NCBI GenBank assembly: GCA_000002435.2
Contig: CM018789.1
Strand: one strand, 5' to 3'
Length of the DNA stretch: 64,000 nucleotides
DNA from: Giardia intestinalis
Lineage: Eukaryota
Shown here one piece after another: positions 39,301-61,215 of this stretch. The notes under the pieces are model-generated. The model had not been told where the DNA came from, ran no database searches, and worked only from the letters and a program-made list of their open reading frames with translations. The translations under genes and the position numbers were made by a program. Numbering within the stretch: the first letter of the stretch is position 1; each line of letters starts with the position of its first letter.

Positions 39301-42300
39301 CGCATTATCTCCTAACGACCCTCATAGCCGAATGACAGCATTTGCAGAGATGAGACATAGCATCCTAAAGAGCTTGACCGCAAGTAGAACACAGAGCCCA
39401 GGGCAGACTATTTCCTCAACAGTAGTCGCGTCGAATAAGCCTGCTCAAAAGAATCAAGAGAGAGATGATCTGACGCTGCAAGAACTGCAGGTAAGTAGTG
39501 CTACAGGCGCAGAGTCAGGTGGATCGCAACTGAATACTTGTCAGTTGACCCTGGGATCATCCCGTTTAAGCAACCTCATCCTCAGCAAGCGCATTACTGA
39601 CTCTCAGTTTAATAGGATCAATCAGCCAGAGGCTCAAGCAAAGCAGTTTGCACCGTACCTGCCGCCAGAGGTCGATATTGTCCATCATATTGTAAGCCAT
39701 CATACAGACGCTAGTGGCCGTCTGCCGCTGATTTCTCGCTCTGGGGCACGAAACGCTGCAAAGAAGAAGCTTATGCCTCCGTTTTACGTTCTATCGTGCT
39801 CATGCGATAATGACGTCTATACTTGGGACGCGCGCATCATGAGCCGCCCGTACCATCACTACACCTTTTCCTTCGATGTGCTGAAGTACGCAAGGATCCT
39901 CAACCTATCTCAAATCACAGGGATTGTGTTGGACGCTGCCTCCATCCTTTTCCATAAGTACCTTGTAGACGGAGCCACCATGGCGACAAAGTCTGCATCC
40001 GTTGGTATATGCAGTGACCCTATACTTAACAGATCTGGCGATAAGCAGATTAGAAAGCTCCTTCTTTCAAGCAGTCGATTGTACAATGTAGAGGGTAGCG
40101 ATTCAGATGAGCGAATGATCGAGTTAAAAGAATCAAATAGGTTCTGCCAGCGTGCTCTTGAAATAGGAGCCAGTGATCAGGAAGGTCATGGAGCAGGGCT
40201 GTCTTCCAAATTAAAGGATATCTCAGACCGTGTAAAGCAAGAAAAACTCAAAAAGGAAGCCGAAACACGCCAAGAAGAACTATTTACGCGGCTTTCTAAT
40301 GGCCTTTCGGCAAATGGAAAGGGGTTCCAACTGTCCACCGCACAAAAAGGAGCCAACGGGGTTCGCTCGAGCAATTACACAAACTACCATGTGGATGATG
40401 CAGATATTAGGGTTCGTCTACTGAAGTTGGGAAAGTCAGGATTACTCGACAAAGAAGCAGTGAAGTCACTTATTAATCAAGTACCCACAGAGACGAAGAT
40501 CTACACGCAGAAGACCAAAGACATGTCATTTTTAAATTTTGATCGCTTCTACGTTCTCCACCCGGATGTACTAAACATGATATCTGGAGCTCCCGAAGAC
40601 AATGCAGCCGCAGAAGATAGCCACTTGGGCATATCTCCATATTATGTTGGAAAATTCAGCAAGGACAGTATCTATAACATCATTAGTCAAAGCGATGTGA
40701 TGCCCACAGAGCTCCTCTGTGATATCAGTAACAGCATCACAGTCGACAAACACGCTGACTCGCAATTGGCGGAAGCAGTTAACAAATCCGGCCTCAGCCT
40801 TGACACGATCCTCTCTGAAGACCGTACTCAGAGTCAGACCCAATTTAACAGGCAGGTGTACTTTGAAGTAAAGAAGCTTTCAGAGCTCCCTTCGGCCTTT
40901 CGCTTCTTGGCTGTTGAGCCGTGCAATTTCCTGATGATTGGACATGAAGACGGATCGCTCACTGCTATGGTCACGACTATAAAGCAATCCTTTCAGGGTA
41001 CACCCAGAAAAAACCAGCTAGCCAAGGAGGCAGCATCTGATAGCACCATTTTGAAGAGGGGTAATATACCTGCTACCAATAAAGCAGTTTCCCGGCAGAC
41101 GACCTTCTTTAGAGTATTAGCAGGTCACAGCGAGTGCGTCTCTTGCATGTGCTATATATTGACAGATCAGTGCTGTTATGTGTGTAGTGCAAGCATTGAT
41201 GGGTCTATTTTGTGTCTGATACACCCTCTCGTGGGAGATTTCAGGCTCCAGTACAGCGTCTGGTCTAAGTTTGTTTCGGATCTAGACAACGAAGCATTAC
41301 AAGGGTCGAAGGATGGCGCTGAGGAGGCCCAGGACCTTCTATCTGAAGCTCGAAGAAGCCCTGAGATCATCGAGTTTTTACAAGGGTCGGGCTCGTTTCT
41401 TATTGCTGGAACTAGTTTCGGAAATGTATATTTCATTACGTTTCCCCTGCAGTCACCGTTACGCACGGCTCTATTCTTCCAGACAAAACCTTTCATGCAG
41501 GCATATATTAACAGCGAAGGCGTTACCACGCCAGCGTCTACCCCTTCGGCTAGTATTAAGTTTCTGGATTATTGTTGTGATACGCTGACGATTGTACTTG
41601 AAAGCGGCCACATTTTACAGTTCGATCAAGTGTCTCTCTACTACAAACACTGGCTCTATTTCTCTAACACTGGAAAGCTGGCTATGGATCCATCCACTAC
41701 TTCTCACTACCTCTCACGGCTCACATATGATAGGTCTTCTCATGCGCTTGTTCTATCGACGGGCTCATCTCCACTCTGCAATCCCCGGGATGCGATAAAG
41801 GCGCCCCCTAACAGTCCCTACTTTTCAAGCTGCTTCGCCGCATTTCTCCAGCATTTTCCCTTCAAGATAATGCCTCAGAGAGTTTTCTCTGCGTATACTC
41901 AGACAACCAGAAAACCGGTGTCCGCGGACGAGGTACGTGAACTACGCCGTCGAGAGGTTGTAGACGAGTCTGAGGATAATAAGATTGTTGCCACATACGT
42001 CGTTTTCCCAATTGTGCTAGATACACTGGGAATAGGTGGGGGCTGCACTTTAAGCGCCTGTGACTCCCTGACTGACGTCGCGACAGAATCGACGGCTACC
42101 AACTCTAAGACCTACACATCAGTAAGAGAGGTAATACATGCATATGATCCATCCCACGACTTAACATACAAAAATCAGTCATCCGTTGGAAAGGTATTTT
42201 ATAGTAACGGGAAGATACTGGAGCGGCCGGTTAACAAGGCTCTGGACCAGGGGCAGAAGTACTATGACGAAAAGCTAAGGAAGTGGAGGTATATCCTTCC

Positions 42301-42931
42301 CGAAGATCGGAGCCCTGAGGAGCAGCCTCGTAGAAAGCCACCCTCTGTTTTATCAAGGCAATCAGAAGAGCGTGCTGTCAGCAGGAGTAAGTCGACTACG
42401 CCCATGCGTTATATTAATGCCTCCACTGCCGCCGTCAAAGTGAGCACCATTGTGCAACGCAGTGTGTCTCTCGGGACGTCTTCCAGGAACAAATCGTGCA
42501 ACAGAACGTCACAGATTACCTTGGGTACGAAGCCTTCAGAACTCAGTGCACCACAAAACCAGAAGACTAAGGATACAGGGAGCCAGTCACGTGGTAACAT
42601 CGTGTCGGAAGCGCTTGAGCCATCCGCCAGAAGGGTGGAGAAGCCAGATGGGGTGAGCGAGTCTGTTAGCAGAAGCATAATTTGCATCGGTTATGCTTCA
42701 GGACTTGTCCGGGTTTACGGCAGTACAGGCCGGATTCTAGACGAGTTTTCATATGATAATCCTGTGTCTTCTCTCAGAGCTATTCGAGATGATGATGTCG
42801 GAAGGCAACTACTTCTTTCGATGGAAGCTGAGATGCGTATAGCCGCAGCCTCCACGATCTGGATGGGATTTTCAGACGGGCGCCTTACGATGGAAAAGTG
42901 CAGTGCTCTACTGGACTATTCCATTCCCTAG
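36380..42931 (+). CDS. giant WD40-repeat protein, 2183 aa
   Basis: N-terminal WD repeats (LFSGGVDGLVKVWD, VAWDMRYEP) and further beta-propeller-like repeats near the C-terminus (LVRVYGSTGRILDEF). Long S/T-rich middle section. ATG verified. Confidence 0.6.
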   Translation: MELRYINSLFFRRFGSHAVTITSVSPANELGILFAGMSNGCLVAWDMRYEPSPLARVVVYNAHKGAIKALCWQPYYRLLFSGGVDGLVKVWDPSFTDFLDVSGMMADHSALAQIFSSEKSNPIIERYKYTVQPLITEEETVSPSTGSIKLTRLVQSLGDFTRPIIKISYIAHHIAVLSMDGYIVVYYPDPRRDLTILRYPLFIKVASIFLGHQQLDRVKNFSTLQLGYSLQEPIHKDSVLERYNFPVSDYAYKRAMSIKLQPASSSAPLTSGAPPQASLPQKEPARLLSASFETHDTLNLRDIVECGQLDNGRSLSVTKRGTNIDVNAPLDYSVNPLLTEPVIPLSLAVDTDNTTFYVGDSNGTVHSLSVLDGKVFYKSQIKYVSNNSILDCCFVPHESSLIATGADGTVRGLIAMTGKNYFGRAGPKGVVFTRVLHCPKRKLVEYEDLMSSRPESAQFVKQIRARMRQSGPSLSTIHETDELLIDVMTQTLEEQQLRTMLQKNRNQEMREQPIAETDLTALFTGSSSKKEITAKEAYHYESHAARSMKIDEGANSDLKKKDDNIILMDASGLLLIVESTTNITLFEAMYPEIGPVPAALMAKATELGVFLTTPVVTQPRRSLNYQFYAIAKMNLSLQEEYWILRGRFAKTMAKMDQRHKLESFMTESAIKKGPARASSESRPTNSLPRAQRRAKSKSSIESMDEKVSATKVSILNCYEDMQLIDMFLLKLPPDLNPRGEVVIGIVRPVCIDFFKPVYKHAGQSRGMGHSKPIQLLSLLPAPPLPFLDPTDETKNSAEMPITDKKINSLLEGRSQEFLSTTDGNPILQRSGAACADSKSAQGMRLSNERTTMEDIANTQTESVSITAQSYYKNHAIQELSNVSESKNVDVLSSIDEPVSEDYAQAQLQQNRLRYRNNSIRSRKISNTETDFVSAIINGDISVSHSGAETIRGAYSVQDIVKTQLDSIASISTKRALSPNDPHSRMTAFAEMRHSILKSLTASRTQSPGQTISSTVVASNKPAQKNQERDDLTLQELQVSSATGAESGGSQLNTCQLTLGSSRLSNLILSKRITDSQFNRINQPEAQAKQFAPYLPPEVDIVHHIVSHHTDASGRLPLISRSGARNAAKKKLMPPFYVLSCSCDNDVYTWDARIMSRPYHHYTFSFDVLKYARILNLSQITGIVLDAASILFHKYLVDGATMATKSASVGICSDPILNRSGDKQIRKLLLSSSRLYNVEGSDSDERMIELKESNRFCQRALEIGASDQEGHGAGLSSKLKDISDRVKQEKLKKEAETRQEELFTRLSNGLSANGKGFQLSTAQKGANGVRSSNYTNYHVDDADIRVRLLKLGKSGLLDKEAVKSLINQVPTETKIYTQKTKDMSFLNFDRFYVLHPDVLNMISGAPEDNAAAEDSHLGISPYYVGKFSKDSIYNIISQSDVMPTELLCDISNSITVDKHADSQLAEAVNKSGLSLDTILSEDRTQSQTQFNRQVYFEVKKLSELPSAFRFLAVEPCNFLMIGHEDGSLTAMVTTIKQSFQGTPRKNQLAKEAASDSTILKRGNIPATNKAVSRQTTFFRVLAGHSECVSCMCYILTDQCCYVCSASIDGSILCLIHPLVGDFRLQYSVWSKFVSDLDNEALQGSKDGAEEAQDLLSEARRSPEIIEFLQGSGSFLIAGTSFGNVYFITFPLQSPLRTALFFQTKPFMQAYINSEGVTTPASTPSASIKFLDYCCDTLTIVLESGHILQFDQVSLYYKHWLYFSNTGKLAMDPSTTSHYLSRLTYDRSSHALVLSTGSSPLCNPRDAIKAPPNSPYFSSCFAAFLQHFPFKIMPQRVFSAYTQTTRKPVSADEVRELRRREVVDESEDNKIVATYVVFPIVLDTLGIGGGCTLSACDSLTDVATESTATNSKTYTSVREVIHAYDPSHDLTYKNQSSVGKVFYSNGKILERPVNKALDQGQKYYDEKLRKWRYILPEDRSPEEQPRRKPPSVLSRQSEERAVSRSKSTTPMRYINASTAAVKVSTIVQRSVSLGTSSRNKSCNRTSQITLGTKPSELSAPQNQKTKDTGSQSRGNIVSEALEPSARRVEKPDGVSESVSRSIICIGYASGLVRVYGSTGRILDEFSYDNPVSSLRAIRDDDVGRQLLLSMEAEMRIAAASTIWMGFSDGRLTMEKCSALLDYSIP

Positions 42932-43002
42932 CGTTCACAGATTATACTGGGATCTAAAGTGAACGTAAGACATACATTGTGGTCAAGAGCCTCAGTGAAA
43001 AA

Positions 43003-44070
43003 ATGCCCTTTCCTGGTCTATTCCGTAATAGCAATTATCCCGGAGAATACGCCCATCTAGCGCAGGATGCGGAGGCTGTTCTCAACGACAAAGCATATGA
43101 TTCCTTCAACCTCGTCTCGCAGCACAATTTAACCCCTCACACTTCTTTGACTACTATGCTCACGACTTCCCACAGAGGCCCGCCGAAAATCACTGAATCT
43201 CTCAGCATCGCTAGGCCACGTGGCTCTTTCCGAGGGTCTGTTGATTCTCAGGGAACATTAAGTGGGTCCTACACGACGTCCATTTTGCCTGGGCCCCGGT
43301 ACCGTAACGCCGCGCGTCTACGCCTATTAGGTGATGTGCACTCCTTCAGTGCAGAGAAGTCAAAGAAGGTCATGGCAACCGGCCGTGCCGAGCTCCACGT
43401 CGAAGGAGGAGACTACTCGCTCTCCGGTCTCTATAGCCTCCCAGGACACATCATAGCGGGCTCATACTTACAGGGATTTGGAGACAGGATAGCTGTGGGG
43501 TGTGAGATTGTGCGGCCTCCGCAAACGGATCCCTCTGTCAAGCCGGGTACCTCACCTATTGCCATGGCGGCAGGGGGAATCCGTTACACTAATATCAGCC
43601 GTGAGCGTAGTTCCGATCCAGGGATAATAGCCACGGCCCAGGTGAACACGGAGAAGACCGCGAATGCTTCCCTGCTTGCCCAGCTCTCTGGAGAGCTTGC
43701 TGTCGCAGCTTCTGTCAACGCGGACTTCTGTGGCTTCAGGTCTCCAGAACAAAAAGATGTCACAAAAGATCGCTCGGCCCTGTCAGGCCTTCTCAATGGC
43801 TTGAAGAAGACGCGTCTATCTGCATCATGTGGATTTACTAAACTGTTAAAAAGCTCGCAGGTTACGGTGAACTGCAACACGTACGGAGAGGTGTGCTGCG
43901 ACGTGCGGCATGCAATGCAGGATGGCACGGTTGCGGAGGTCATCGGGAGTCTCGACATTTTCTCAGGCCGCACGACCGTTGGGGTGGGCCTTGTGTTGTC
44001 AGAGCAGGCGCTCCCTCGCTTTATTCACAAGGCGGTTCGGAAGGCCAACTCTTCGAGCAATCACAAGTAA
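43003..44070 (+). CDS. hypothetical protein, candidate mitosomal outer-membrane beta-barrel (Tom40/porin-3-like)
   Basis: The track start is GTG; the first ATG is at 43003. The N-terminus SNYPGEYAHLAQDAEAV resembles the Tom40 NPGxxExLH segment. The remainder alternates hydrophobic/polar residues as beta strands (LHVEGGDYSLSGLYSLPGHIIAGSYL, TTVGVGLVLSE). The assignment is tentative. Confidence 0.45.
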   Translation: MPFPGLFRNSNYPGEYAHLAQDAEAVLNDKAYDSFNLVSQHNLTPHTSLTTMLTTSHRGPPKITESLSIARPRGSFRGSVDSQGTLSGSYTTSILPGPRYRNAARLRLLGDVHSFSAEKSKKVMATGRAELHVEGGDYSLSGLYSLPGHIIAGSYLQGFGDRIAVGCEIVRPPQTDPSVKPGTSPIAMAAGGIRYTNISRERSSDPGIIATAQVNTEKTANASLLAQLSGELAVAASVNADFCGFRSPEQKDVTKDRSALSGLLNGLKKTRLSASCGFTKLLKSSQVTVNCNTYGEVCCDVRHAMQDGTVAEVIGSLDIFSGRTTVGVGLVLSEQALPRFIHKAVRKANSSSNHK

Positions 44071-44088
44071 AGCCAAAATTCCAAAAAC

Positions 44089-45807: not shown

Positions 45808-47232
45808 ATGATGGGCTCCTTGGGGGCTGCTGAGCACTACGAGAAAGCCTGTACTGCCTACTCGCAGCGCGTTAACGACATTGTCCAGCTACTGAAGCGT
45901 CTGGATACCCTTCATAGTGATGGTTCCGCGGCATTTGATTCTAATAACCGCGATAGATACTTGACCTTCTATCGTGCGCAGGACTCCTTACTAGAAGCTA
46001 TGATTACAGACATATCGCCGATTGAAGGCGTCCCCACCTATCTTAAGCGCTTGCTCAAGAGCCTTGCAGAGTTGGTGGGGGCTCTCCGACTTCTAAACGG
46101 CTGCTGCGTCAGAGATCTAGAAGGCATTTTCGCGTGGATCGATGAACATAGCTTTGAGAAGGCGCAAGAACAGAGGGACTTCTTCAAGATGCAAGCTGAG
46201 GCTGCAGGGAGAAAGCTCGAAGAGGCCACTGCTCTCAACACCTCTCTCACAAAGGAGATGGAACAGCTTGTGTGTCGCTATGAGGCGCAGGCTCGACAGA
46301 AAGAGAATCAGGCGAGCAAGATGCTTGACGAGTACAAGAAGCTGTTCAGAGACATCGCAGGCAAAGCTTCAAGGTACGTAAAATCTGAGGAGCATGCTCT
46401 GCTGGGCCAAGAGGCAGTCTCAGATCATGAACTTCTTTCGACACAGATACAGATAGGCAGTAGAGCAATTGACACTTTGGATCCTGGACTGCCGATAAAT
46501 GATGAACTACTTGAATTCACGAGTCACACCGCTTCCAACTTGGTTGATCTTCTATTACGTTTAGTAGAGGCAGAAGGCAGACGTCACCCCTTGTCGGAGT
46601 CGGCAGAAGCTGAGATGATCAAGTACAGCGGTCCGGAGTCAGTAAGACTTGATGCCCTGGAAGCGCAGCAAGCTGCATTGTACAGACAGATCAATAGGCA
46701 AGATGAACGATTGGAAAGGTTTGATGCACAGAACCATCCCGTTCCCATGTCGATGCTCGACGAGTTGGCTAGGGATGCTTCAGAGCTAAAGGGAAAGTCA
46801 GCTGAGCAGACACAACACATCGCTGAACTATTGGGTATTCAGTATGAGTCGATTATACCAGTTGGTTACAGTCGCGAGCGCCCTCAATCTTCTCACAATA
46901 ATCCCTCAGACTGTCTAAAGGAAATAGTGGACTCTCTTATGTTTTCAACAGCGTGCATATGTAACTTGCATGCAGTGGTTGGCTATGGGATTGATTCATA
47001 TGCGATTATAGACACAGTAAAGGCGGAGTCCGATAGGAAGCGAAGAGTGTCCAGAAAAAGGAAAAGGATGGCAGGGACTGTCAGTGCAAGAGACATGATA
47101 TCTTCTGCGCTTGATGCCTCTGATCTTGGAGCTAAGAGCAATGTTGCAACAACACAAGAGGTTCCGTTGGGCGACTTGACGCCTAGTGGACAGCGAACAT
47201 ATACGGTTCGGGCGCAGCTAATGCAACTGTGA
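45808..47232 (+). CDS. coiled-coil hypothetical protein, 474 aa; the inverted-repeat boundary falls inside it at 46064
   Basis: ATG verified. Predicted coiled-coil stretches. Its 3' 390 codons are duplicated in inverted orientation at 61216-62394. Confidence 0.55.
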   Translation: MMGSLGAAEHYEKACTAYSQRVNDIVQLLKRLDTLHSDGSAAFDSNNRDRYLTFYRAQDSLLEAMITDISPIEGVPTYLKRLLKSLAELVGALRLLNGCCVRDLEGIFAWIDEHSFEKAQEQRDFFKMQAEAAGRKLEEATALNTSLTKEMEQLVCRYEAQARQKENQASKMLDEYKKLFRDIAGKASRYVKSEEHALLGQEAVSDHELLSTQIQIGSRAIDTLDPGLPINDELLEFTSHTASNLVDLLLRLVEAEGRRHPLSESAEAEMIKYSGPESVRLDALEAQQAALYRQINRQDERLERFDAQNHPVPMSMLDELARDASELKGKSAEQTQHIAELLGIQYESIIPVGYSRERPQSSHNNPSDCLKEIVDSLMFSTACICNLHAVVGYGIDSYAIIDTVKAESDRKRRVSRKRKRMAGTVSARDMISSALDASDLGAKSNVATTQEVPLGDLTPSGQRTYTVRAQLMQL

Positions 47233-47294
47233 AATTCTTTGATGCATGGATGAGTGGGGACCAGGTATGTAGTTGACTGACGCTTTGCAAGTAG

Positions 47295-48197
47295 TCATAG
47301 AATATGCTCCAGTGCACGCGCAACGTAATATTTAATCAGCGAGATTATCGCATACGCTTGCCTGGCCATAAAGGCGAGCATGTGCTTGTCGGCTCGCCAC
47401 GCAATCAGAAATTCGAGCTTGCCATGCTCTACGTCCACTGTCCATGAGTGTATGGAGTGTAAAGGATGAAGCGCAAGTTTGTTGTGTGTTTCACGATCAT
47501 ATATATGTAGAGCCTTAGAATCTACCGCTAGAAAAACAGAGACAGGGTCGTTGGGAGAGAGATATGTAGCCTCAAAGAATTCCATCCTAGTGAGATCGAC
47601 GCTATCGATGAATTCTACGAAAAGTCTGTGAGTCTGCACTGTGGGATGTCCCCTGGCCTTGGCCCGAGAGAGAACCAGAACATCCCAATCTTTGGCTGTG
47701 CGCTTGCTTCGTATGCACGGATGGATGTAGCGTTCTATATTTTGTGCCACAACTCCCGGTGACAGTGGATCCTTGTCTAGTAAAAGACGCAAAGATGCAA
47801 ATTCAACGACATTATCTTCTGACGGGGGTATAGGCAGACGCATGTAGTCCTCGATACCCTGGGCCACGGCAAGAAAACTATAGGGAGAGTTTTCAGTGAC
47901 ACTTGGGTTTGTCGTGTGCTGGGGTAGCCTCCGAAGTAAGAAGGGAGAAAGCCCGTCTGGGATATTGACTTGTTGAAGGTATAGTTCCAGAGGACGGTCG
48001 CTGGTCTGAAGAATGCGCGCGCCTGTCTCTTCTCGGAGGAATAGAGATAGGTCTTGAGTATGGTCCTCCAGCCCCATTGCTTTGCATAGTGCTTTAATGG
48101 CCTCGATCGTTGTGGCTCCCAGAGTAAGGGAGACCTCTGTTTCTGCTCCTCCCGGAGCTTGTGCTCGTAAAGTGTGGGCAAAGCGTGCAAGATCCAT
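47295..48197 (-). CDS. hypothetical protein (~300 aa), copy 1 of 2 inside the inverted repeat
   Basis: The track start at 48209 is TTG; the first ATG is at 48197. The C-terminal half (VEFIDSVDLTRMEFFEATYL...LEFLIAWRADKHMLAFMARQAYAIISLIKYY) suggests a PH/PTB-like fold, but nothing is certain. Confidence 0.5.
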   Translation of the reverse strand: MDLARFAHTLRAQAPGGAETEVSLTLGATTIEAIKALCKAMGLEDHTQDLSLFLREETGARILQTSDRPLELYLQQVNIPDGLSPFLLRRLPQHTTNPSVTENSPYSFLAVAQGIEDYMRLPIPPSEDNVVEFASLRLLLDKDPLSPGVVAQNIERYIHPCIRSKRTAKDWDVLVLSRAKARGHPTVQTHRLFVEFIDSVDLTRMEFFEATYLSPNDPVSVFLAVDSKALHIYDRETHNKLALHPLHSIHSWTVDVEHGKLEFLIAWRADKHMLAFMARQAYAIISLIKYYVARALEHIL

Positions 48198-50850
48198 TGA
48201 ATCAATCAACTCTTTTAAAGTTCATTGCCCCCGCTATGTTAACGACAATCCTCCGGTCATATCTACAGGTGTGTGAGTATCTTTGGGGCTGCAATGTCCG
48301 TCGTACTGCCTGGACGCAATGCTGAACCAGAGAGAGCTGCCATATGAATGTGCGTATATTGAGCTTAACAGAGTTAGGTTCGGCGCTATCGAGTTGTAAC
48401 ACGGTCTAGAACTACTCTATTCATAACTATGAATGCATTTCAGACAGAGCGAGGACCTATAGGTGCTATTCTCTGTGAGGATATCTGACAAATACAACTG
48501 TGATTGCTTTGGAGAAGCTGCTTATGTTAGTACTCTGGCACTTCTTCACGAAGTGCTTTGTTGACCTGCCATTAGGACGATGACTGTTCTTTGAAGCCTC
48601 TAACATGGGCCCTACGAACGTGCGTTCTTGTAGTTTCATCTCTTTATCTGGAGGCTACGTTCTCTAATGTCACGCTCTTATGGTGGCGGTAGGTCTTTGC
48701 AATCTATGGATTGAGTTACGATAAAACTTGTAATCTGTGTTTGAACTCGGAAAGCCACCGACATGTTAGAATAAGTTTAGACCATATTTACTGAATTGCT
48801 CCTTTTGCAATCAGGAGCTGCACTAGCTAAGGCTTTGCTTAACTTCTTTAGCACCTCGTAGTACAGCTGTTCAGCCCATTTGAGTTGGCACACCCTTCTG
48901 CTCAAGGTTGCAGAGGCCTACAGATTAGAATGCAGTGCTAACTGCCCCCTCAGCGTGGGCGTCTGATGGTATTTATGACACTGTATTCTATGACTCTCTA
49001 GAATTATCTGTGACACTTAGGCATATATATTTTGGTAATTCTGGCTTTTTGGCAGAGGGTTACGGAACTTAACCCTCGGGGATACCCTTTTACGGCATAT
49101 TTAAGGGTTCGTTCTATCTTCCACGGACTATTGAAACGTTGATCATAAGATCAGAGGAAAGCCACTATAAGGTGTCCTCGAGCTATCAGTCACAGCATGG
49201 AATAGGTAGCCCTTAAAGGTTACCATGCAATTCAGTGCCCTTTGAAAATCAGCACTAAGGCCTACTATATCAGCGATACTTAGAAGTATAGATAAGGCGC
49301 GCACACCCATGCAGATTGTGTATGTATAGCAGCGTGCATTGTGAGTTCATAGTGAAGCTATGATATGGGGCAGAACCCCGCTTAGACGATAAAGTCATTC
49401 GCGGTGCTTTACTTGGCACATTTACTCCGGTTCTGAGAAGCGTTATGAAAACACGGAGTCAGTGATGTGAACAAAGAGCGTGCAATGAACTGGGAATCAT
49501 CGAGGTTAATAGAATGGCGCGAAGCGAGTGTTATCTACCGCCCTGTTAGGCTACAGGTGTCGGTGTTCCTGGTTGTCAGTAGAGCTGCACAGATCCTACG
49601 ATTCCAAGAGCTGACCCCTCCCGAGAGCATTAGCAAGCGCTTATAGTGACGCGGAGTAGAGGCTGACCAATGCAAGTCGACGCACACTGTGCGACATAGA
49701 GGGGAGCGCCAAGCCGTAGCAGTAGGACTTTTACTGCGTGGTTTGCTGGCTCGCAACGCAGGAGATAACGTGTCTGTATCGACCAGTTTATCTGTTCAAG
49801 ATTGGGGACAGCTTAGACAGAGGTTGCAGACAGGAACTGGTTAGCTTGCTTGTCAGAAACTGGAGGCCTGATTTCTCCGCGTCCTACATGTGGGTTCAAA
49901 GAATGGTGGATCCGGAGACAGACACGCAAATGATAAAAAATGGCAACTCATTACAACCTCCCCGGGCGTCTGCTCCCACCTTTTGCAAGCATTTGTATGC
50001 TAGAGGAGCTTTAGTGCAGAGAATTCTGATGACGCAGGCAGCTTCTCGGTGGTTAGCATCCACGTAGAGAGTCCCGTCTCTTGAGACCTGCAGATTCAGT
50101 ACGCGCTTAGGAGTTACGGGTATGGATACTCTAAGACAGACGTGTCTATGGATGCAGCTGGGTACCAGTACTTGTCCCTGCATTAACCGTTGCCATGATT
50201 GGGTTGTGCAGCGTGTCCTGTCCGCTGACCCGAGATAGCACGTTTGGACAATGCCGCTTTCTATGCGGGCCTGGAAGAATTAAGCTTTTTGAAGTGTTGC
50301 CAGTCAACCCATCGCACAATGAGAGGCTGTACCAATAGCCTAGCGAAGCATCAGAAACAAGCCGTGCACGTTCCAGACCGGAGTGCCCAGCAAGCCAGTC
50401 TGTTGCTAGCATACACCTCCTACAGGCTTCTCGGTTGCCACAATCTCCTTTCGGAATCCTGCAAAGAACCGTTTCTGGGCTTATCCCGGATGCCGGGCTT
50501 TGAGTATGACCCGCGCAGGACCAGCAGCAGGCATAAAGCGTAGAGAATACCCAGGATGCCAGCTAATTCCACAGAGTAAGGGAGGTAGGCACAAAGGACA
50601 GCGCTGTTGTCTATTTCTGAAGTGTCTGTTCCCGCTGCACAGAGGGGTCGCAGAGTCTGTATTCGGCGGAGAAAGGGGCTACGCAAGGGACGCGTCTAAC
50701 GCTTGACGAAGTCATATTTCTCAACCAGAGACACATAAAAGGGTTTCCTTAGACTAGTCATCGTAGATACAACAACCAGATTCTTAGGCTTGGGTGCTTG
50801 AGATTATTAAGAAGATTCTTACCCGTATAAGTGAGCTGAGAAGGATTTTA

Positions 50851-52899
50851 ATGTTGCTTGCAATTTTCTACTTTGTGATAAGCACTCTTACAGCAAAGTG
50901 TACTACGCAGACACAAACTTGTGAAGCTGAGAAGTGCGAAATGGTTGGTGAAACAGAAATCTGTACACGGTGTCAAACAGGAAAAGTTCCAATTGATGGA
51001 AAGTGCGTAGATGCTACTGCTAATGCAAACTGCAAAAACGCTAGCGGTGATGGTGATGCAAACCAAGTCTGCGGAAAATGCATAGGAGCTAACTTTTTCA
51101 TGTATAAGGGCGGATGCTATGATAAAGAGAAGGTACCGGGAAATACTCTGTGCACAACTGTGTCACCAGATGGAGTATGCTCAGTAGCTGCGAATGAATA
51201 CTTTGTTCCACCAAATGCGGATGCTACTCATGATTCAGTCGTATCATGTTCTGAGGAAACCCCAATACATCTTGCTAATAACAAGCAGTACATAGGCGTA
51301 GCGGGATGTGCTACTTGCAGTGCTCCTAAGGCTCCTGGTGAAGACAACACCCCAAAGGCTGCTACGTGTACTAAGTGTGCAGCAGGATTTCTACATACTC
51401 CATCTGAAGGACTGAGTTCATGCGAAGAAACATGCCCAGAGGGATACTTCGGGCACACAGCTACTGCTGAAAGCAAGAAGACTTGCAAATCATGCACAGG
51501 CGGATCTAGCGAAGCACCGAATGTAAAGGGTATTGGAGACTGTCTGAAGTGCATGTACAATGAGGCTAGCGGCAATACCCTTACGTGCGAAAAATGCAGT
51601 GCACAAAAGAAGCCAAGTCTAGATAAAACAAGTTGTAATGATTGTACAGGTCAAAACTGCGCTTTCTGTAGTTCTAGTGGGGGAGACTGTGAGGGATGTG
51701 ACTCTGGTTTCATCTTGGATGGACAAAACTGTGTTAAGAGCGACTGCAAGACTGAGAACTGCAAGGCGTGCACCAATCCGAAGGCAGCAAACGAGGTCTG
51801 CACAGAGTGCATCTCCACTCACCATCTCACGCCGACAAGTCAATGTGTGCAGTACTGTCAAGCACTTGGAAACTACTATGCTGGCACTAATGCTGACAAC
51901 AAAAAGGCATGCAAGGAGTGCACTGTGGCTAACTGCAAAACTTGCAATGATCAGGGGCAGTGTCAAACATGCAACGACGGATTCTATAAAAACGGCGACG
52001 CATGCTCTCCGTGCCACGAAAGCTGCAAGACATGCAGCGCAGGCACTGCCAGCGACTGCACCGAGTGTCCCACTGGAAAAGCACTTAAGTATGGAAACGA
52101 CGGTACTAAGGGCACGTGTGGAGAAGGCTGCACAACAGGCCAAGGCAGCGGTGCCTGCAAAACGTGTGGGCTCACTATCGATGGTGCTAGCTACTGCTCT
52201 GAGTGTGATACACAAAATGAATATCCTCAAAATGGGATCTGTACTTCAACGACCGCTCGTACTGTGGCTACTTGTAAGAATAGCAACGTTGCCAATGGCA
52301 TATGTAGCTCATGTACCAATGGATTTCTTCGTATGAACGGAGGCTGCTATGAGACGACCAAGTTTCCGGGAAAGAGCGTCTGCGAAGGTGCAAACGCAGA
52401 CGCAGACACGTGCAAAGCACCTGTTCCAGGTTACAAAGTAGAGGCAGGAAAGCTTGTGATGTGCTCTAAGGGCTGTGACACGTGCAGCGACGCAACTACT
52501 TGTACAAAATGTGGAGATGGATACACAAAAATTGAAAACAGCCAAACATGCACAAAGTGTGATTCCAGCTGTGAAACATGTACTGGAGCAGCTACAACAT
52601 GTAAGGTGTGTGCTACAGGATACTACAAGACCGCATTGGGAGAAAGTACGTGCACATCCTGCGAAAATGATAGCAACGGAGTCATCGGTGTCAAGGGCTG
52701 CTTAAACTGCGCTCCTCCATCGTCTAGTACTGGCTCCGTTCTCTGCTACCTCATGAAAGGTGAGAATACTGGTGGAAGCGTCAACAAGAGCGGCCTTTCC
52801 ACTGGCGCCATCGCGGGGATCTCCGTCGCAGCCGTCGTCGTCGTGGCCGGCCTTGTGGGCTTCCTCTGCTGGTGGTTCATCTGCCGTGGAAAGGCGTAG
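50851..52899 (+). CDS. vsp: variant-specific surface protein (VSP), 682 aa, copy 1
   Basis: Signal peptide [15 protein letters not shown]. About 12% Cys, mostly as CXXC. GGCY motifs (KGGCYD, NGGCYE). One C-terminal TM helix and a CRGKA tail. The track start is GTG; the ATG is at 50851 with an AT-rich context (attttaATG). Confidence 0.9.
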
Positions 52900-52914
52900 A
52901 CTTAGGTAGTAAAC
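52900..52914 (+). promoter_or_regulatory. extended VSP-type polyadenylation signal ACTTAGGTAGTAAAC
   Basis: Begins 1 nt after the VSP stop codon. It matches the VSP-associated motif ACTYAGRTAGTRAAY, which contains the general Giardia signal AGTRAAY. Confidence 0.75.
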
Positions 52915-53367
52915 GCGTCACTGTATATGGCTTATTACGCTGTGCTGCTGGGGCTATCTGAGAGCGGTCCAGAGATCATGCGAGTGGGCCCGCTCCTTCC
53001 TGGCCAGTCTAAGGACGAGGGTTGAGTATGGATAACATAATGAAAGAGTCCTCTTCAGTGACACATCCAGAATCTGGGCATTCCTCGCCGCTCCATGAGG
53101 ATATGCTCTGTCTGGATGTCCATGCCGATCTGCCTTGGATTCAGGTCTTCTCGCAGACTCTCTGCTCTACCAGTGGCGCCTCTCCTTGGCCTGCCGTCTG
53201 GTGGGTGAAGCTCCAGTCGCCGTCTTTTTTAGATGCTCCCGTCTGACTCGGTGATTGCTGTCGGGCCCTCCGCTGGCTGGGCCCCTCGGTGTCCGGGCAG
53301 CTGTGGCCCGGGTCAGCGCTCCCACAGTCGCGGTCGCTTGGGTCCCAGCGGGTTCGGATGATGGGTG

Positions 53368-55080: not shown

Positions 55081-55533
55081 CACCCATCATCCGAACCCGC
55101 TGGGACCCAAGCGACCGCGACTGTGGGAGCGCTGACCCGGGCCACAGCTGCCCGGACACCGAGGGGCCCAGCCAGCGGAGGGCCCGACAGCAATCACCGA
55201 GTCAGACGGGAGCATCTAAAAAAGACGGCGACTGGAGCTTCACCCACCAGACGGCAGGCCAAGGAGAGGCGCCACTGGTAGAGCAGAGAGTCTGCGAGAA
55301 GACCTGAATCCAAGGCAGATCGGCATGGACATCCAGACAGAGCATATCCTCATGGAGCGGCGAGGAATGCCCAGATTCTGGATGTGTCACTGAAGAGGAC
55401 TCTTTCATTATGTTATCCATACTCAACCCTCGTCCTTAGACTGGCCAGGAAGGAGCGGGCCCACTCGCATGATCTCTGGACCGCTCTCAGATAGCCCCAG
55501 CAGCACAGCGTAATAAGCCATATACAGTGACGC

Positions 55534-55548
55534 GTTTACTACCTAAGT
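55534..55548 (-). promoter_or_regulatory. extended VSP-type polyadenylation signal (mirror copy)
   Basis: Reverse complement of gtttactacctaagt is ACTTAGGTAGTAAAC, immediately 3' of the minus-strand VSP stop. Confidence 0.75.
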
Positions 55549-57597
55549 CTACGCCTTTCCACGGCAGATGAACCACCAGCAGAGGAAGCCCACAAGGCCG
55601 GCCACGACGACGACGGCTGCGACGGAGATCCCCGCGATGGCGCCAGTGGAAAGGCCGCTCTTGTTGACGCTTCCACCAGTATTCTCACCTTTCATGAGGT
55701 AGCAGAGAACGGAGCCAGTACTAGACGATGGAGGAGCGCAGTTTAAGCAGCCCTTGACACCGATGACTCCGTTGCTATCATTTTCGCAGGATGTGCACGT
55801 ACTTTCTCCCAATGCGGTCTTGTAGTATCCTGTAGCACACACCTTACATGTTGTAGCTGCTCCAGTACATGTTTCACAGCTGGAATCACACTTTGTGCAT
55901 GTTTGGCTGTTTTCAATTTTTGTGTATCCATCTCCACATTTTGTACAAGTAGTTGCGTCGCTGCACGTGTCACAGCCCTTAGAGCACATCACAAGCTTTC
56001 CTGCCTCTACTTTGTAACCTGGAACAGGTGCTTTGCACGTGTCTGCGTCTGCGTTTGCACCTTCGCAGACGCTCTTTCCCGGAAACTTGGTCGTCTCATA
56101 GCAGCCTCCGTTCATACGAAGAAATCCATTGGTACATGAGCTACATATGCCATTGGCAACGTTGCTATTCTTACAAGTAGCCACAGTACGAGCGGTCGTT
56201 GAAGTACAGATCCCATTTTGAGGATATTCATTTTGTGTATCACACTCAGAGCAGTAGCTAGCACCATCGATAGTGAGCCCACACGTTTTGCAGGCACCGC
56301 TGCCTTGGCCTGTTGTGCAGCCTTCTCCACACGTGCCCTTAGTACCGTCGTTTCCATACTTAAGTGCTTTTCCAGTGGGACACTCGGTGCAGTCGCTGGC
56401 AGTGCCTGCGCTGCATGTCTTGCAGCTTTCGTGGCACGGAGAGCATGCGTCGCCGTTTTTATAGAATCCGTCGTTGCATGTTTGACACTGCCCCTGATCA
56501 TTGCAAGTTTTGCAGTTAGCCACAGTGCACTCCTTGCATGCCTTTTTGTTGTCAGCATTAGTGCCAGCATAGTAGTTTCCAAGTGCTTGACAGTACTGCA
56601 CACATTGACTTGTCGGCGTGAGATGGTGAGTGGAGATGCACTCTGTGCAGACCTCGTTTGCTGCCTTCGGATTGGTGCACGCCTTGCAGTTCTCAGTCTT
56701 GCAGTCGCTCTTAACACAGTTTTGTCCATCCAAGATGAAACCAGAGTCACATCCCTCACAGTCTCCCCCACTAGAACTACAGAAAGCGCAGTTTTGACCT
56801 GTACAATCATTACAACTTGTTTTATCTAGACTTGGCTTCTTTTGTGCACTGCATTTTTCGCACGTAAGGGTATTGCCGCTAGCCTCATTGTACATGCACT
56901 TCAGACAGTCTCCAATACCCTTTACATTCGGTGCTTCGCTAGATCCGCCTGTGCATGATTTGCAAGTCTTCTTGCTTTCAGCAGTAGCTGTGTGCCCGAA
57001 GTATCCCTCTGGGCATGTTTCTTCGCATGAACTCAGTCCTTCAGATGGAGTATGTAGAAATCCTGCTGCACACTTAGTACACGTAGCAGCCTTTGGGGTG
57101 TTGTCTTCACCAGGAGCCTTAGGAGCACTGCAAGTAGCACATCCCGCTACGCCTATGTACTGCTTGTTATTAGCAAGATGTATTGGGGTTTCCTCAGAAC
57201 ATGATACGACTGAATCATGAGTAGCATCCGCATTTGGTGGAACAAAGTATTCATTCGCAGCTACTGAGCATACTCCATCTGGTGACACAGTTGTGCACAG
57301 AGTATTTCCCGGTACCTTCTCTTTATCATAGCATCCGCCCTTATACATGAAAAAGTTAGCTCCTATGCATTTTCCGCAGACTTGGTTTGCATCACCATCA
57401 CCGCTAGCGTTTTTGCAGTTTGCATTAGCAGTAGCATCTACGCACTTTCCATCAATTGGAACTTTTCCTGTTTGACACCGTGTACAGATTTCTGTTTCAC
57501 CAACCATTTCGCACTTCTCAGCTTCACAAGTTTGTGTCTGCGTAGTACACTTTGCTGTAAGAGTGCTTATCACAAAGTAGAAAATTGCAAGCAACAT
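55549..57597 (-). CDS. vsp: variant-specific surface protein (VSP), 682 aa, copy 2 (100% identical to copy 1)
   Basis: Identical translation to 50851-52899. It is convergent (tail-to-tail) with copy 1, with 2.65 kb between the two stop codons. Confidence 0.9.
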
Positions 57598-60250
57598 TAA
57601 AATCCTTCTCAGCTCACTTATACGGGTAAGAATCTTCTTAATAATCTCAAGCACCCAAGCCTAAGAATCTGGTTGTTGTATCTACGATGACTAGTCTAAG
57701 GAAACCCTTTTATGTGTCTCTGGTTGAGAAATATGACTTCGTCAAGCGTTAGACGCGTCCCTTGCGTAGCCCCTTTCTCCGCCGAATACAGACTCTGCGA
57801 CCCCTCTGTGCAGCGGGAACAGACACTTCAGAAATAGACAACAGCGCTGTCCTTTGTGCCTACCTCCCTTACTCTGTGGAATTAGCTGGCATCCTGGGTA
57901 TTCTCTACGCTTTATGCCTGCTGCTGGTCCTGCGCGGGTCATACTCAAAGCCCGGCATCCGGGATAAGCCCAGAAACGGTTCTTTGCAGGATTCCGAAAG
58001 GAGATTGTGGCAACCGAGAAGCCTGTAGGAGGTGTATGCTAGCAACAGACTGGCTTGCTGGGCACTCCGGTCTGGAACGTGCACGGCTTGTTTCTGATGC
58101 TTCGCTAGGCTATTGGTACAGCCTCTCATTGTGCGATGGGTTGACTGGCAACACTTCAAAAAGCTTAATTCTTCCAGGCCCGCATAGAAAGCGGCATTGT
58201 CCAAACGTGCTATCTCGGGTCAGCGGACAGGACACGCTGCACAACCCAATCATGGCAACGGTTAATGCAGGGACAAGTACTGGTACCCAGCTGCATCCAT
58301 AGACACGTCTGTCTTAGAGTATCCATACCCGTAACTCCTAAGCGCGTACTGAATCTGCAGGTCTCAAGAGACGGGACTCTCTACGTGGATGCTAACCACC
58401 GAGAAGCTGCCTGCGTCATCAGAATTCTCTGCACTAAAGCTCCTCTAGCATACAAATGCTTGCAAAAGGTGGGAGCAGACGCCCGGGGAGGTTGTAATGA
58501 GTTGCCATTTTTTATCATTTGCGTGTCTGTCTCCGGATCCACCATTCTTTGAACCCACATGTAGGACGCGGAGAAATCAGGCCTCCAGTTTCTGACAAGC
58601 AAGCTAACCAGTTCCTGTCTGCAACCTCTGTCTAAGCTGTCCCCAATCTTGAACAGATAAACTGGTCGATACAGACACGTTATCTCCTGCGTTGCGAGCC
58701 AGCAAACCACGCAGTAAAAGTCCTACTGCTACGGCTTGGCGCTCCCCTCTATGTCGCACAGTGTGCGTCGACTTGCATTGGTCAGCCTCTACTCCGCGTC
58801 ACTATAAGCGCTTGCTAATGCTCTCGGGAGGGGTCAGCTCTTGGAATCGTAGGATCTGTGCAGCTCTACTGACAACCAGGAACACCGACACCTGTAGCCT
58901 AACAGGGCGGTAGATAACACTCGCTTCGCGCCATTCTATTAACCTCGATGATTCCCAGTTCATTGCACGCTCTTTGTTCACATCACTGACTCCGTGTTTT
59001 CATAACGCTTCTCAGAACCGGAGTAAATGTGCCAAGTAAAGCACCGCGAATGACTTTATCGTCTAAGCGGGGTTCTGCCCCATATCATAGCTTCACTATG
59101 AACTCACAATGCACGCTGCTATACATACACAATCTGCATGGGTGTGCGCGCCTTATCTATACTTCTAAGTATCGCTGATATAGTAGGCCTTAGTGCTGAT
59201 TTTCAAAGGGCACTGAATTGCATGGTAACCTTTAAGGGCTACCTATTCCATGCTGTGACTGATAGCTCGAGGACACCTTATAGTGGCTTTCCTCTGATCT
59301 TATGATCAACGTTTCAATAGTCCGTGGAAGATAGAACGAACCCTTAAATATGCCGTAAAAGGGTATCCCCGAGGGTTAAGTTCCGTAACCCTCTGCCAAA
59401 AAGCCAGAATTACCAAAATATATATGCCTAAGTGTCACAGATAATTCTAGAGAGTCATAGAATACAGTGTCATAAATACCATCAGACGCCCACGCTGAGG
59501 GGGCAGTTAGCACTGCATTCTAATCTGTAGGCCTCTGCAACCTTGAGCAGAAGGGTGTGCCAACTCAAATGGGCTGAACAGCTGTACTACGAGGTGCTAA
59601 AGAAGTTAAGCAAAGCCTTAGCTAGTGCAGCTCCTGATTGCAAAAGGAGCAATTCAGTAAATATGGTCTAAACTTATTCTAACATGTCGGTGGCTTTCCG
59701 AGTTCAAACACAGATTACAAGTTTTATCGTAACTCAATCCATAGATTGCAAAGACCTACCGCCACCATAAGAGCGTGACATTAGAGAACGTAGCCTCCAG
59801 ATAAAGAGATGAAACTACAAGAACGCACGTTCGTAGGGCCCATGTTAGAGGCTTCAAAGAACAGTCATCGTCCTAATGGCAGGTCAACAAAGCACTTCGT
59901 GAAGAAGTGCCAGAGTACTAACATAAGCAGCTTCTCCAAAGCAATCACAGTTGTATTTGTCAGATATCCTCACAGAGAATAGCACCTATAGGTCCTCGCT
60001 CTGTCTGAAATGCATTCATAGTTATGAATAGAGTAGTTCTAGACCGTGTTACAACTCGATAGCGCCGAACCTAACTCTGTTAAGCTCAATATACGCACAT
60101 TCATATGGCAGCTCTCTCTGGTTCAGCATTGCGTCCAGGCAGTACGACGGACATTGCAGCCCCAAAGATACTCACACACCTGTAGATATGACCGGAGGAT
60201 TGTCGTTAACATAGCGGGGGCAATGAACTTTAAAAGAGTTGATTGATTCA

Positions 60251-61153: not shown

Positions 61154-61215
61154 CTACTTGCAAAGCGTCAGTCAACTACATACCTGGTCCCCACTCATCC
61201 ATGCATCAAAGAATT

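What the first reader, a model, noticed from the sequence alone, without database searches (positions are those of the whole stretch)
43003..44070. Candidate mitosomal beta-barrel (Tom40-like) protein
The 355-aa product opens with MPFPGLFRNSNYPGEYAHLAQDAEAV, which resembles the Tom40 N-terminal NPGxxExLH segment. The remainder is dominated by short alternating hydrophobic/polar segments separated by Gly/Pro/Asp turns (LHVEGGDYSLSGLYSL, IIAGSYLQGFGDRIAVGCEIV, IIATAQVNTEK, LAVAASVNADFCGF, VTVNCNTYGEVCCDV, TTVGVGLVLSE), as expected for a ~19-strand porin-3 barrel of this size. Giardia mitosomes have a very reduced import machinery, so any outer-membrane barrel is notable. The call is tentative because compositional mimicry is possible.
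Basis: inference. Interest (0 to 1): 0.5.

Follow-up and report, generated by a model that had tools for sequence, protein, structure and literature searches.

The report
Giardia Tom40 gene, already known
The ORF really is the outer-membrane protein-import channel (Tom40) of the Giardia mitosome, but it is the published, experimentally localised GiTom40 gene (GL50803_17161), so it is a correct rediscovery and not a new finding.

Summary
The ORF at 43003-44070 (+) exists and encodes the quoted 355-aa protein. The exact sequence is XP_002364145.1 / UniRef D3KGX1, "Tom40, Giardia intestinalis WB C6" (orthologue tags DHA2_17161, GSB_17161). GL50803_17161 is GiTom40. It was found in the mitosome proteome, tagged and antibody-detected protein localises to mitosomes, and papers treat it as essential: a CRISPR attempt never removed all gene copies. 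It is now a standard mitosome marker.

Independent tests here agree:
- Pfam Porin_3 is the top hit (E 5e-6, 1.9 bits under the cut-off). Orthologues pass it.
- A 10-sequence fornicate profile hits only Tom40 chains in the PDB (best E 1.8e-13, near full length). No VDAC appears at E<=10.
- hhalign of a Giardia-clade-only profile gives E 3e-6 over 264 columns against a fungal Tom40, and E 0.17 over 23 columns against human VDAC1.
- An AlphaFold model (pLDDT 75) has an N-terminal helix, exactly 19 strands and a C-terminal helix. Its 17 best PDB matches are all Tom40.
- The N-terminal PG motif and a C-terminal beta-signal (TVGVGLVL) sit at the homologous Tom40 positions.

Novelty: none. Channel activity itself remains inferred.

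The parts
43003..44070 (+). Complete intron-less coding sequence of GiTom40 (355 aa plus TAA stop), gene GL50803_17161
   Evidence: ORF and translation. Exact-sequence match to XP_002364145.1 / KAE8301435.1 / UniRef100_D3KGX1 'Tom40 Giardia intestinalis WB C6'.
42995..43002 (+). A-rich stretch (gtgaaaaa) directly abutting the ATG. It is consistent with the very short 5' UTR and AT-rich initiator typical of Giardia genes. The upstream gene ends only 71 nt before the ATG.
   Evidence: Sequence read directly. The role as initiator is inferred from general knowledge of Giardia promoters and was not tested.
43039..43083 (+). N-terminal conserved PG motif (aa 13-14) and amphipathic helix (aa 15-27), homologous to the NPG-helix segment of Tom40 that lies in the barrel lumen in solved TOM structures
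   Evidence: P13, G14 and Y16 are invariant in 10 fornicate sequences. The segment aligns to 'NPGLVENIAKEVQ' of Chaetomium Tom40 and 'NPGTVENLNKEVS' of yeast Tom40, and to 'NPGKFERLHTEAKD' of a fungal Tom40. The model shows helix 15-27.
43102..43995 (+). 19-strand beta-barrel (aa 34-331)
   Evidence: AlphaFold2 model with mean pLDDT 75.4 and pTM 0.64, with 19 DSSP strands. Foldseek top 17 hits are Tom40 chains, E 8e-13 to 2e-10, TM 0.62-0.81. Pfam Porin_3 covers aa 123-318.
43516..43563 (+). Lineage-specific loop insertion between b10 and b11 (aa 172-187, Pro/Ser/Thr-rich). It is absent from G. muris, Spironucleus and Dysnectes Tom40.
   Evidence: Gap in the other sequences in alignment A2. 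Model confidence is low here (pLDDT <50 at aa 179-184).
43726..43812 (+). Long variable loop between b14 and b15 (aa 242-270) with a short predicted helix (aa 259-268)
   Evidence: Poorly conserved and length-variable in alignments. pLDDT is <50 at aa 245-262; helix 259-268 in the model.
43975..43998 (+). Beta-signal-like motif Po-x-G-x-x-Hy-x-Hy (TVGVGLVL, aa 325-332) in the last strand (b19)
   Evidence: A regex match at the homologous position in all 12 aligned sequences, including two fungal Tom40s (KFGVGIML). G327 is invariant. The motif alone is degenerate: 17% of shuffles have one in that region.
44008..44061 (+). C-terminal basic helix after the barrel (aa 336-353, LPRFIHKAVRKANSSSNH). 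It is present in the G. intestinalis-group sequences and short or absent in more distant relatives.
   Evidence: Model helix 336-353. Alignment tails.
44066..44071 (+). AGTAAA overlapping the stop codon, matching the Giardia polyadenylation-signal consensus (AGTRAA). The next gene's ATG is only 18 nt after the stop.
   Evidence: Sequence read directly. The assignment as polyA signal is inferred from general knowledge and was not tested.

Best explanation
The ORF is the Giardia intestinalis (assemblage A, WB-type) tom40 gene, GL50803_17161. [quoted passage not shown] An N-terminal helix carrying the conserved PG motif is expected to lie in the lumen. Cytosolically made mitosomal precursors, such as the Fe-S cluster assembly proteins and chaperones, pass unfolded through this pore and are handed to the Tim17/Tim44/PAM-Hsp70 machinery of the inner membrane. 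Shown here: the gene's identity, membership of the Porin_3 superfamily, closer affinity to Tom40 than to VDAC, and the predicted fold. Shown in papers: mitosomal localisation, presence in the mitosome proteome, and failure of a CRISPR attempt to remove all gene copies (one clone fell to 5% of the protein), in line with the essentiality those authors assume. Inferred by homology: that the barrel actually conducts precursor proteins. Because Giardia is reported to lack Tom20/22/70/5/6/7, Sam50 and VDAC, the barrel probably works as a minimal translocase and may also carry small solutes. Both of those points are inference.
For: The sequence is identical to XP_002364145.1 / D3KGX1 'Tom40' of G. 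intestinalis WB C6, and the same 90% cluster holds DHA2_17161. The assemblage B orthologue is GSB_17161 and G. muris TNJ27823.1 is 'Tom40'. Pfam Porin_3 scores E 5.1e-6 and 26.5 bits for the window protein. Relatives score above the 28.4-bit cut-off: P0004 42.6, G. muris 45.4, Dysnectes 103.7. The exhaustive profile search of 1.84 billion representatives returns only 7 proteins, including Spironucleus salmonicida Tom40 and a Dysnectes brevis protein. That Dysnectes protein hits only Tom40 chains in the PDB, with human TOM40 at E 8e-11. The 10-sequence profile A2 gives 9 of 9 PDB hits as Tom40, best E 1.8e-13, aligned over profile positions 11-314, with no VDAC at E<=10. The Giardia-clade-only profile A3 has Tom40 as its top 8 PDB hits (E 0.011-0.56). 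hhalign of A3 against fungal Tom40 P0020 gives probability 87.9%, E 3.3e-6 and 264 columns. Against human VDAC1 it gives probability 0.4%, E 0.17 and 23 columns. The AlphaFold model has pLDDT 75.4, 19 strands and N- and C-terminal helices. Foldseek ranks 1-17 are all Tom40. The beta-signal is at the homologous last strand in 12 of 12 sequences. Literature: GL50803_17161 is Tom40 in the mitosome proteome and is detected by an anti-Tom40 antibody (PMC3044749). GlTom40-HA localises exclusively to mitosomes and was used as the co-IP bait (PMC5142787). All analysed CRISPR lines and subclones kept tom40, and one clone fell to 5% of the protein (PMC9042576). It was used as a marker for the 2026 organelle inventory (PMC13643923).
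Against: The window protein alone falls 1.9 bits short of the Pfam Porin_3 gathering score. It gives no PDB hit by single-sequence phmmer or with the 5-sequence Giardia profile, and no hit to the Tom40-specific TIGR00989 model. The link to Tom40 therefore depends on intermediate sequences. Structural similarity to VDAC is almost as good as to Tom40 (TM-scores 0.64-0.65 versus 0.62-0.67). The alignment used for folding contained two fungal Tom40s, which could bias the model towards Tom40 geometry. No electrophysiology or reconstituted import assay for GiTom40 was found in the papers read, so channel function is inferred. The original 2009 description (Dagley et al., Mol Biol Evol 26:1941) could not be read.
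Confidence: 0.95

Rival explanations
1. The protein is a VDAC-type metabolite porin, not a protein translocase. It would be the single outer-membrane solute channel of the mitosome, mislabelled as Tom40.
For: Pfam Porin_3 covers both VDAC and Tom40. VDAC structures match the model with E 2e-10 to 4e-9 and TM-scores equal to those of Tom40. Giardia is reported to have no separate VDAC (PMC3044749), so some solute-channel role is plausible.
Against: No VDAC chain is hit by any sequence profile, even at E<=10, while all hits are Tom40. hhalign gives E 3.3e-6 over 264 columns against Tom40, and E 0.17 over 23 columns against VDAC1. The N-terminal PG motif aligns with the Tom40 NPG segment. Foldseek ranks 17 Tom40 chains ahead of the first VDAC.
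Confidence: 0.03
2. The protein is an Mdm10-like member of the porin superfamily, acting in membrane tethering or barrel assembly and not in import.
For: Yeast Mdm10 (7btx_L) matches the model at E 9.9e-9. Mitosomes are reported to be constitutively associated with the ER (title of PMC5377515).
Against: Mdm10 ranks below all cryo-EM Tom40 chains and most VDAC chains and is never hit by the sequence profiles. The SAM components that are partners of Mdm10 are reported absent from Giardia (PMC3044749).
Confidence: 0.01
3. The resemblance is compositional mimicry. The protein would be soluble or otherwise folded, with a Ser/Thr/Gly-rich composition that only looks like a beta-barrel.
For: The window protein alone is just under the Pfam cut-off. 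The first AlphaFold run, with 5 close sequences, gave an unusable model (pLDDT 33.8).
Against: Beta-periodicity is above shuffles (z 3.2). Homology to Tom40 is significant and near full length through intermediates. The deeper alignment gives a confident 19-strand barrel. Published work places the protein in the mitosome membrane.
Confidence: 0.01

Closest known systems
GiTom40 / GlTom40 (GL50803_17161; XP_002364145.1), Giardia intestinalis WB
   Same: Identical in sequence over all 355 residues. It is the same gene.
   Different: Nothing. Automatic prokaryote-style gene calls in some assemblies start 8 codons earlier, at a GTG. That is an annotation artefact.
Tom40 of other fornicates: G. muris TNJ27823.1 (P0015), Spironucleus salmonicida Tom40 (P0018), Dysnectes brevis (P0019)
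   Same: Collinear over the barrel. They share invariant P13, G14, Y16, R128, S154, G166, E168, N215, G277, G308 and G327, and the same last-strand beta-signal.
   Different: Only 26-41% identical to the window protein. They lack the b10-b11 insertion (aa 172-187), most of the b14-b15 loop and most of the C-terminal basic helix of the G. intestinalis group.
Fungal and animal Tom40 (yeast 6JNF/6UCU, Chaetomium 9I6B, N. crassa 8B4I, human 7CK6, Drosophila 9ETM)
   Same: Predicted 19-strand barrel with an N-terminal helix preceded by the (N)PG motif, and a beta-signal in b19. Profile E-values reach 1.8e-13 and Foldseek E-values 8e-13, with TM-scores 0.62-0.81.
   Different: Only 13-16% identity in structural alignments. 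The partner subunits Tom22, Tom5/6/7 and Tom20/70 and the Sam50 insertase are reported absent from Giardia (PMC3044749; not re-tested here). The TIGR00989 Tom40 model does not detect it.
VDAC (mitochondrial porin; human VDAC1 2JK4/6G6U, mouse 3EMN)
   Same: Same Porin_3 superfamily and the same 19-strand barrel architecture. Foldseek E about 2e-10 and TM about 0.64.
   Different: No detectable sequence-profile similarity. The N-terminal motif is of the Tom40 type.

Membership tests
Eukaryotic porin superfamily (Pfam Porin_3, PF01459) | Significant match to the Porin_3 profile | tested here: met
   The window protein scores E 5.1e-6 and 26.5 bits, 1.9 bits below the 28.4 gathering score. The precomputed annotation of the identical protein lists PF01459. 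Orthologues and relatives score above the cut-off: 28.5, 29.9, 42.6, 45.4 and 103.7 bits.
Eukaryotic porin superfamily (Pfam Porin_3, PF01459) | 19-strand beta-barrel with an N-terminal helix | tested here: met
   The AlphaFold2 model (pLDDT 75.4) has helix 15-27 and 19 strands between aa 34 and 331. The 34 best Foldseek hits are all Tom40, VDAC or Mdm10. Bacterial barrels score only E >= 3e-4 with TM < 0.4. This is a prediction, not an experimental structure.
Tom40 | Sequence closer to Tom40 than to VDAC or Mdm10 | tested here: met
   PDB profile searches return only Tom40 among meaningful hits. hhalign gives E 3.3e-6 against Tom40 and 0.17 against VDAC1. Foldseek ranks 1-17 are Tom40. No full phylogeny was built.
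Tom40 | Conserved N-terminal (N)PG motif followed by a helix | tested here: met
   YPGEYAHLAQDAEA aligns with NPGKFERLHTEAKD, NPGLVENIAKEVQ and NPGTVENLNKEVS. P13 and G14 are invariant in 12 sequences.
Tom40 | Beta-signal (Po-x-G-x-x-Hy-x-Hy) in the last strand | tested here: met
   TVGVGLVL occupies aa 325-332 in b19, with the same register in all 12 sequences. The motif is degenerate, so its conserved position and the invariant Gly carry the weight.
Tom40 | [quoted passage not shown] | not testable with these tools
   Published: HA-, myc- and GFP-tagged GlTom40 and anti-Tom40 antibodies label mitosomes (PMC5142787; PMC3044749; PMC13643923).
Tom40 | Forms the protein-conducting pore (channel activity, precursor translocation) | not testable with these tools
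   Inferred from homology. The essentiality stated in PMC9042576 is consistent with it. No electrophysiology or import-arrest data were seen in the papers read.
Tom40 | Assembly with Tom22 and small Toms into a TOM core complex | not tested
   PMC3044749 reports no Tom22 or Tom7 in Giardia by HMM searches or proteomics. I did not search the genome. Absence of partners would make it a minimal variant of the complex and would not remove the protein from the Tom40 family.
VDAC | Sequence-profile similarity to VDAC | tested here: not met
   No VDAC chain appears at E<=10 in any PDB profile search. hhalign against verified human VDAC1 gives probability 0.4%.

The most novel reading that the evidence does not exclude
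The Tom40 beta-signal, including its invariant glycine, is strictly kept across fornicates, yet Giardia is reported to lack Sam50 and Sam35, the machinery that reads this signal elsewhere. One reading is that the single Giardia barrel is read by an undiscovered insertase that is not Sam50 or is unrecognisably divergent. Another is that it inserts itself. In either case the one barrel might serve at once as import pore, as its own assembly site and as the organelle's solute channel. My evidence neither supports nor excludes this. The conserved motif could equally be kept only for structural closure of b19 against b1.
Probability: 0.15. Interest if true: 0.6.

Novelty: already known. Interest (0 to 1): 0.08.

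Why it matters
As a scan result it matters only as a positive control. A reader working from raw sequence correctly recognised one of the most divergent Tom40s known, a protein that single-sequence searches against solved structures and the Tom40-specific TIGRFAM model both miss. Biologically, GiTom40 is important as the only known outer-membrane barrel of the Giardia mitosome and the entry gate of a minimal import system. All of that is established in the literature since 2009, and the gene is now a routine organelle marker. Nothing new about it follows from this window.

Tried and rejected
- Single-sequence phmmer against the PDB gave only a spurious MCM5 match at E 0.42.
- The 5-sequence Giardia-only profile found nothing in the PDB.
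- AlphaFold with those 5 close sequences gave pLDDT 33.8. I discarded that model and did not use it for fold searching.
- NCBIfam has a Tom40 model (TIGR00989). It does not detect the window protein, and it matches only the Dysnectes relative, far below its cut-off.
- Word-indexed homologue searches with the wider profile and with the Dysnectes protein added few sequences: 7 and 3 hits. The alignment for folding therefore stayed at 12 sequences.
- The original description (Dagley et al. 2009, Mol Biol Evol 26:1941, PMC2734158) is not held in the library. Its content is cited only through later papers.
- The 2026 inventory paper contains no mention of Sam50, VDAC, porin or beta-barrel. The reported absence of Sam50 and VDAC therefore rests on the 2011 paper alone.
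- I considered and rejected the VDAC, Mdm10 and compositional-mimicry readings (see rivals).

Full report
**Observation.** The + strand carries an ORF from the ATG at 43003 to the TAA at 44068-44070. The mechanical ORF list extends it to a GTG at 42979 (363 aa). The ATG is the supported start, because the 67%-identical orthologues, G. muris Tom40 (40-41% identical) and the more distant relatives P0014 and P0016 all begin at the homologous Met.

The gene is tightly packed. The upstream 2183-aa WD40 gene ends 71 nt before the ATG. An A-rich run abuts the ATG. AGTAAA overlaps the stop codon. The next gene (RIB43A family, E 2.7e-47) starts 18 nt after the stop. The neighbours are a Sec23/Sec24-family protein, RIB43A, a GNAT acetyltransferase and a VSP (E 1.7e-204), which mark the window as Giardia nuclear DNA.

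The beta-type hydrophobic moment over residues 31-335 is 3.2 standard deviations above shuffles, and only 1 of 2000 shuffles reaches it. The alpha-type moment is not raised, and there is no segment of transmembrane-helix hydrophobicity. All six quoted segments lie on predicted strands.

**Identity.** An exact-sequence look-up finds the 355-aa protein as XP_002364145.1 / KAE8301435.1 / UniRef100_D3KGX1, 'Tom40' of Giardia intestinalis WB clone C6. Its 90% cluster contains DHA2_17161. Other orthologues:
- Assemblage E (P15 GLP15_5141, UniRef 'Tom40'), 88% identical.
- Assemblage B (GSB_17161, GL50581_1022), 80% identical.
- G. muris TNJ27823.1 'Tom40', 40-41% identical.

**Published status of GL50803_17161.**
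- It is listed as Tom40 in the quantitative mitosome proteome and detected with a rabbit anti-Tom40 antibody (PMC3044749).
- GlTom40-HA localises exclusively to mitosomes and served as the bait for the outer-membrane interactome (PMC5142787).
- A CRISPR/Cas9 attempt could not remove all copies. It gave one clone with 5% of the protein, and the authors treat tom40 as essential (PMC9042576).
- Anti-Tom40 staining is the reference marker in the 2026 organelle inventory (PMC13643923).
- The first description is Dagley et al. 2009, Mol Biol Evol 26:1941, cited. It could not be read.

**Independent family tests: Pfam and distribution.** Pfam gives Porin_3 as the only meaningful hit (E 5.1e-6, 26.5 bits, against a cut-off of 28.4). 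Relatives pass the cut-off, up to 103.7 bits for the Dysnectes brevis protein P0019.

An exhaustive HMMER search of 1.84 billion representatives with the Giardia profile returns only seven proteins. These include P0003 (assemblage B), G. muris Tom40, Spironucleus salmonicida Tom40 and the Dysnectes protein, plus three unnamed sequences. No hit is named outside the fornicates.

**Independent family tests: Tom40 versus VDAC.** The window protein alone and the five-sequence Giardia profile see nothing in the PDB. Wider profiles do:
- The 10-sequence fornicate profile hits nine distinct PDB sequences, all Tom40. Chaetomium scores E 1.8e-13, yeast 1.3e-9, N. crassa 2.9e-7 and human 2e-4. The best matches (Chaetomium, yeast, N. 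crassa) span profile positions 11-314, and no VDAC appears at E<=10.
- As a control against domination by the canonical-looking members, a profile of Giardia-clade sequences only still ranks Tom40 chains as its top eight hits, weakly (E 0.011-0.56).
- hhalign of that same profile against a fungal Tom40 gives 87.9% probability, E 3.3e-6 and 264 aligned columns, running from the N-terminal PG motif to the last strand.

**Structure.** With five close sequences AlphaFold2 failed (pLDDT 33.8). With 12 sequences (fornicates plus two fungal Tom40s) the model reaches pLDDT 75.4 and pTM 0.64. It shows:
- a disordered residue 1-14 segment;
- helix 15-27;
- exactly 19 strands between residues 34 and 331;
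- a short helix (259-268) in the long b14-b15 loop;
- a C-terminal helix 336-353.

Foldseek against the PDB puts 17 Tom40 chains first (E 8e-13 to 1.9e-10, TM 0.62-0.81), then VDAC (from 1.9e-10) and Mdm10 (9.9e-9). Bacterial barrels are far behind. TM-scores for Tom40 and VDAC are alike, and the alignment contained fungal Tom40s. The fold result therefore establishes the 19-strand mitochondrial-porin architecture, while the Tom40 assignment rests mainly on the sequence profiles.

**Motifs.** P13, G14 and Y16 are invariant in the 10 fornicate sequences, and P13 and G14 remain invariant when the two fungal Tom40s are added. They align to the NPG segment of fungal Tom40s.

The last strand carries a beta-signal-type motif, TVGVGLVL (aa 325-332). 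It is in the same register in all 12 sequences, with G327 invariant. The pattern alone is not significant, since 17% of shuffles have one in that region, so the conserved position is what counts.

Features specific to the G. intestinalis group are a Pro/Ser/Thr-rich insertion between b10 and b11 (aa 172-187), a long b14-b15 loop and the basic C-terminal helix.

**Mechanism.** The best-supported account is that this is the protein-import pore of the outer mitosomal membrane. It is a 19-strand barrel whose N-terminal helix lines the lumen, and unfolded precursors pass through it to the Tim17/Tim44/PAM-Hsp70 system.
- Shown here: fold prediction and family assignment.
- Shown in the literature: localisation, and a failed complete knockout in line with the essentiality the authors assume.
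- Inferred: pore activity.

PMC3044749 reports that Giardia lacks Tom22, Tom7, Sam50 and VDAC. It speculates that GiTom40 also passes small solutes and mediates its own insertion. I did not re-test those absences. The retention of the beta-signal without a known reader is the one mildly intriguing point, and I give it as the 'novel case' at low probability.

**Verdict.** The gene is the already annotated and experimentally characterised GiTom40, so novelty is nil and interest is low.

Noticed in passing
window 46064-53373 and 55075-62384 (spacer 53374-55074): A perfect (100%) inverted repeat of 7,310 nt per arm, separated by 1,701 nt. The region around the spacer (52001-56000) is the most GC-rich part of the window (0.57-0.59). 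Each arm carries an identical 701-aa VSP gene (50794..52899 + and 55549..57654 -, i.e. tail-to-tail; Pfam VSP E 1.7e-204), a 304-aa ORF with a weak PTB/IRS-type hit, and part of a 474-aa ORF. Identical VSP pairs in tail-to-tail or head-to-head arrangement are reported for Giardia muris (PMC7641422) and, from memory, for G. intestinalis. The arrangement is therefore probably a known kind. I did not check whether this particular pair or its spacer has been described, or whether the perfect identity reflects gene conversion or an assembly artefact.
   Followed up: partly
window 42979-43002: Prokaryote-style gene callers in many public (Logan/ENA) assemblies start this gene at an upstream GTG, giving a 363-aa product with 8 spurious N-terminal residues (MVKSLSEK). 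The representative of the 90% cluster carries this artefact, and so do some NCBI entries (DHA2_17161, GSB_17161, both marked 'partial').
   Followed up: yes
P0004, P0005, P0014, P0016, P0017 (Logan assemblies; not in the window): Several unnamed Tom40 relatives exist only in raw-read assemblies. Two are 67% identical and one is 38% identical to the window protein. Two are Ala/Arg-rich sequences (P0016 is 30% identical). They probably come from unsequenced Giardia species or other diplomonads. They would deepen any future Tom40 alignment for this very divergent clade.
   Followed up: partly
window 36380-42931 (+): A very large (2183-aa) ORF lies immediately upstream of tom40. It has only an N-terminal WD40 match (aa 58-92, E 4.9e-14) and no other Pfam domain over about 2000 residues.
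   Followed up: no
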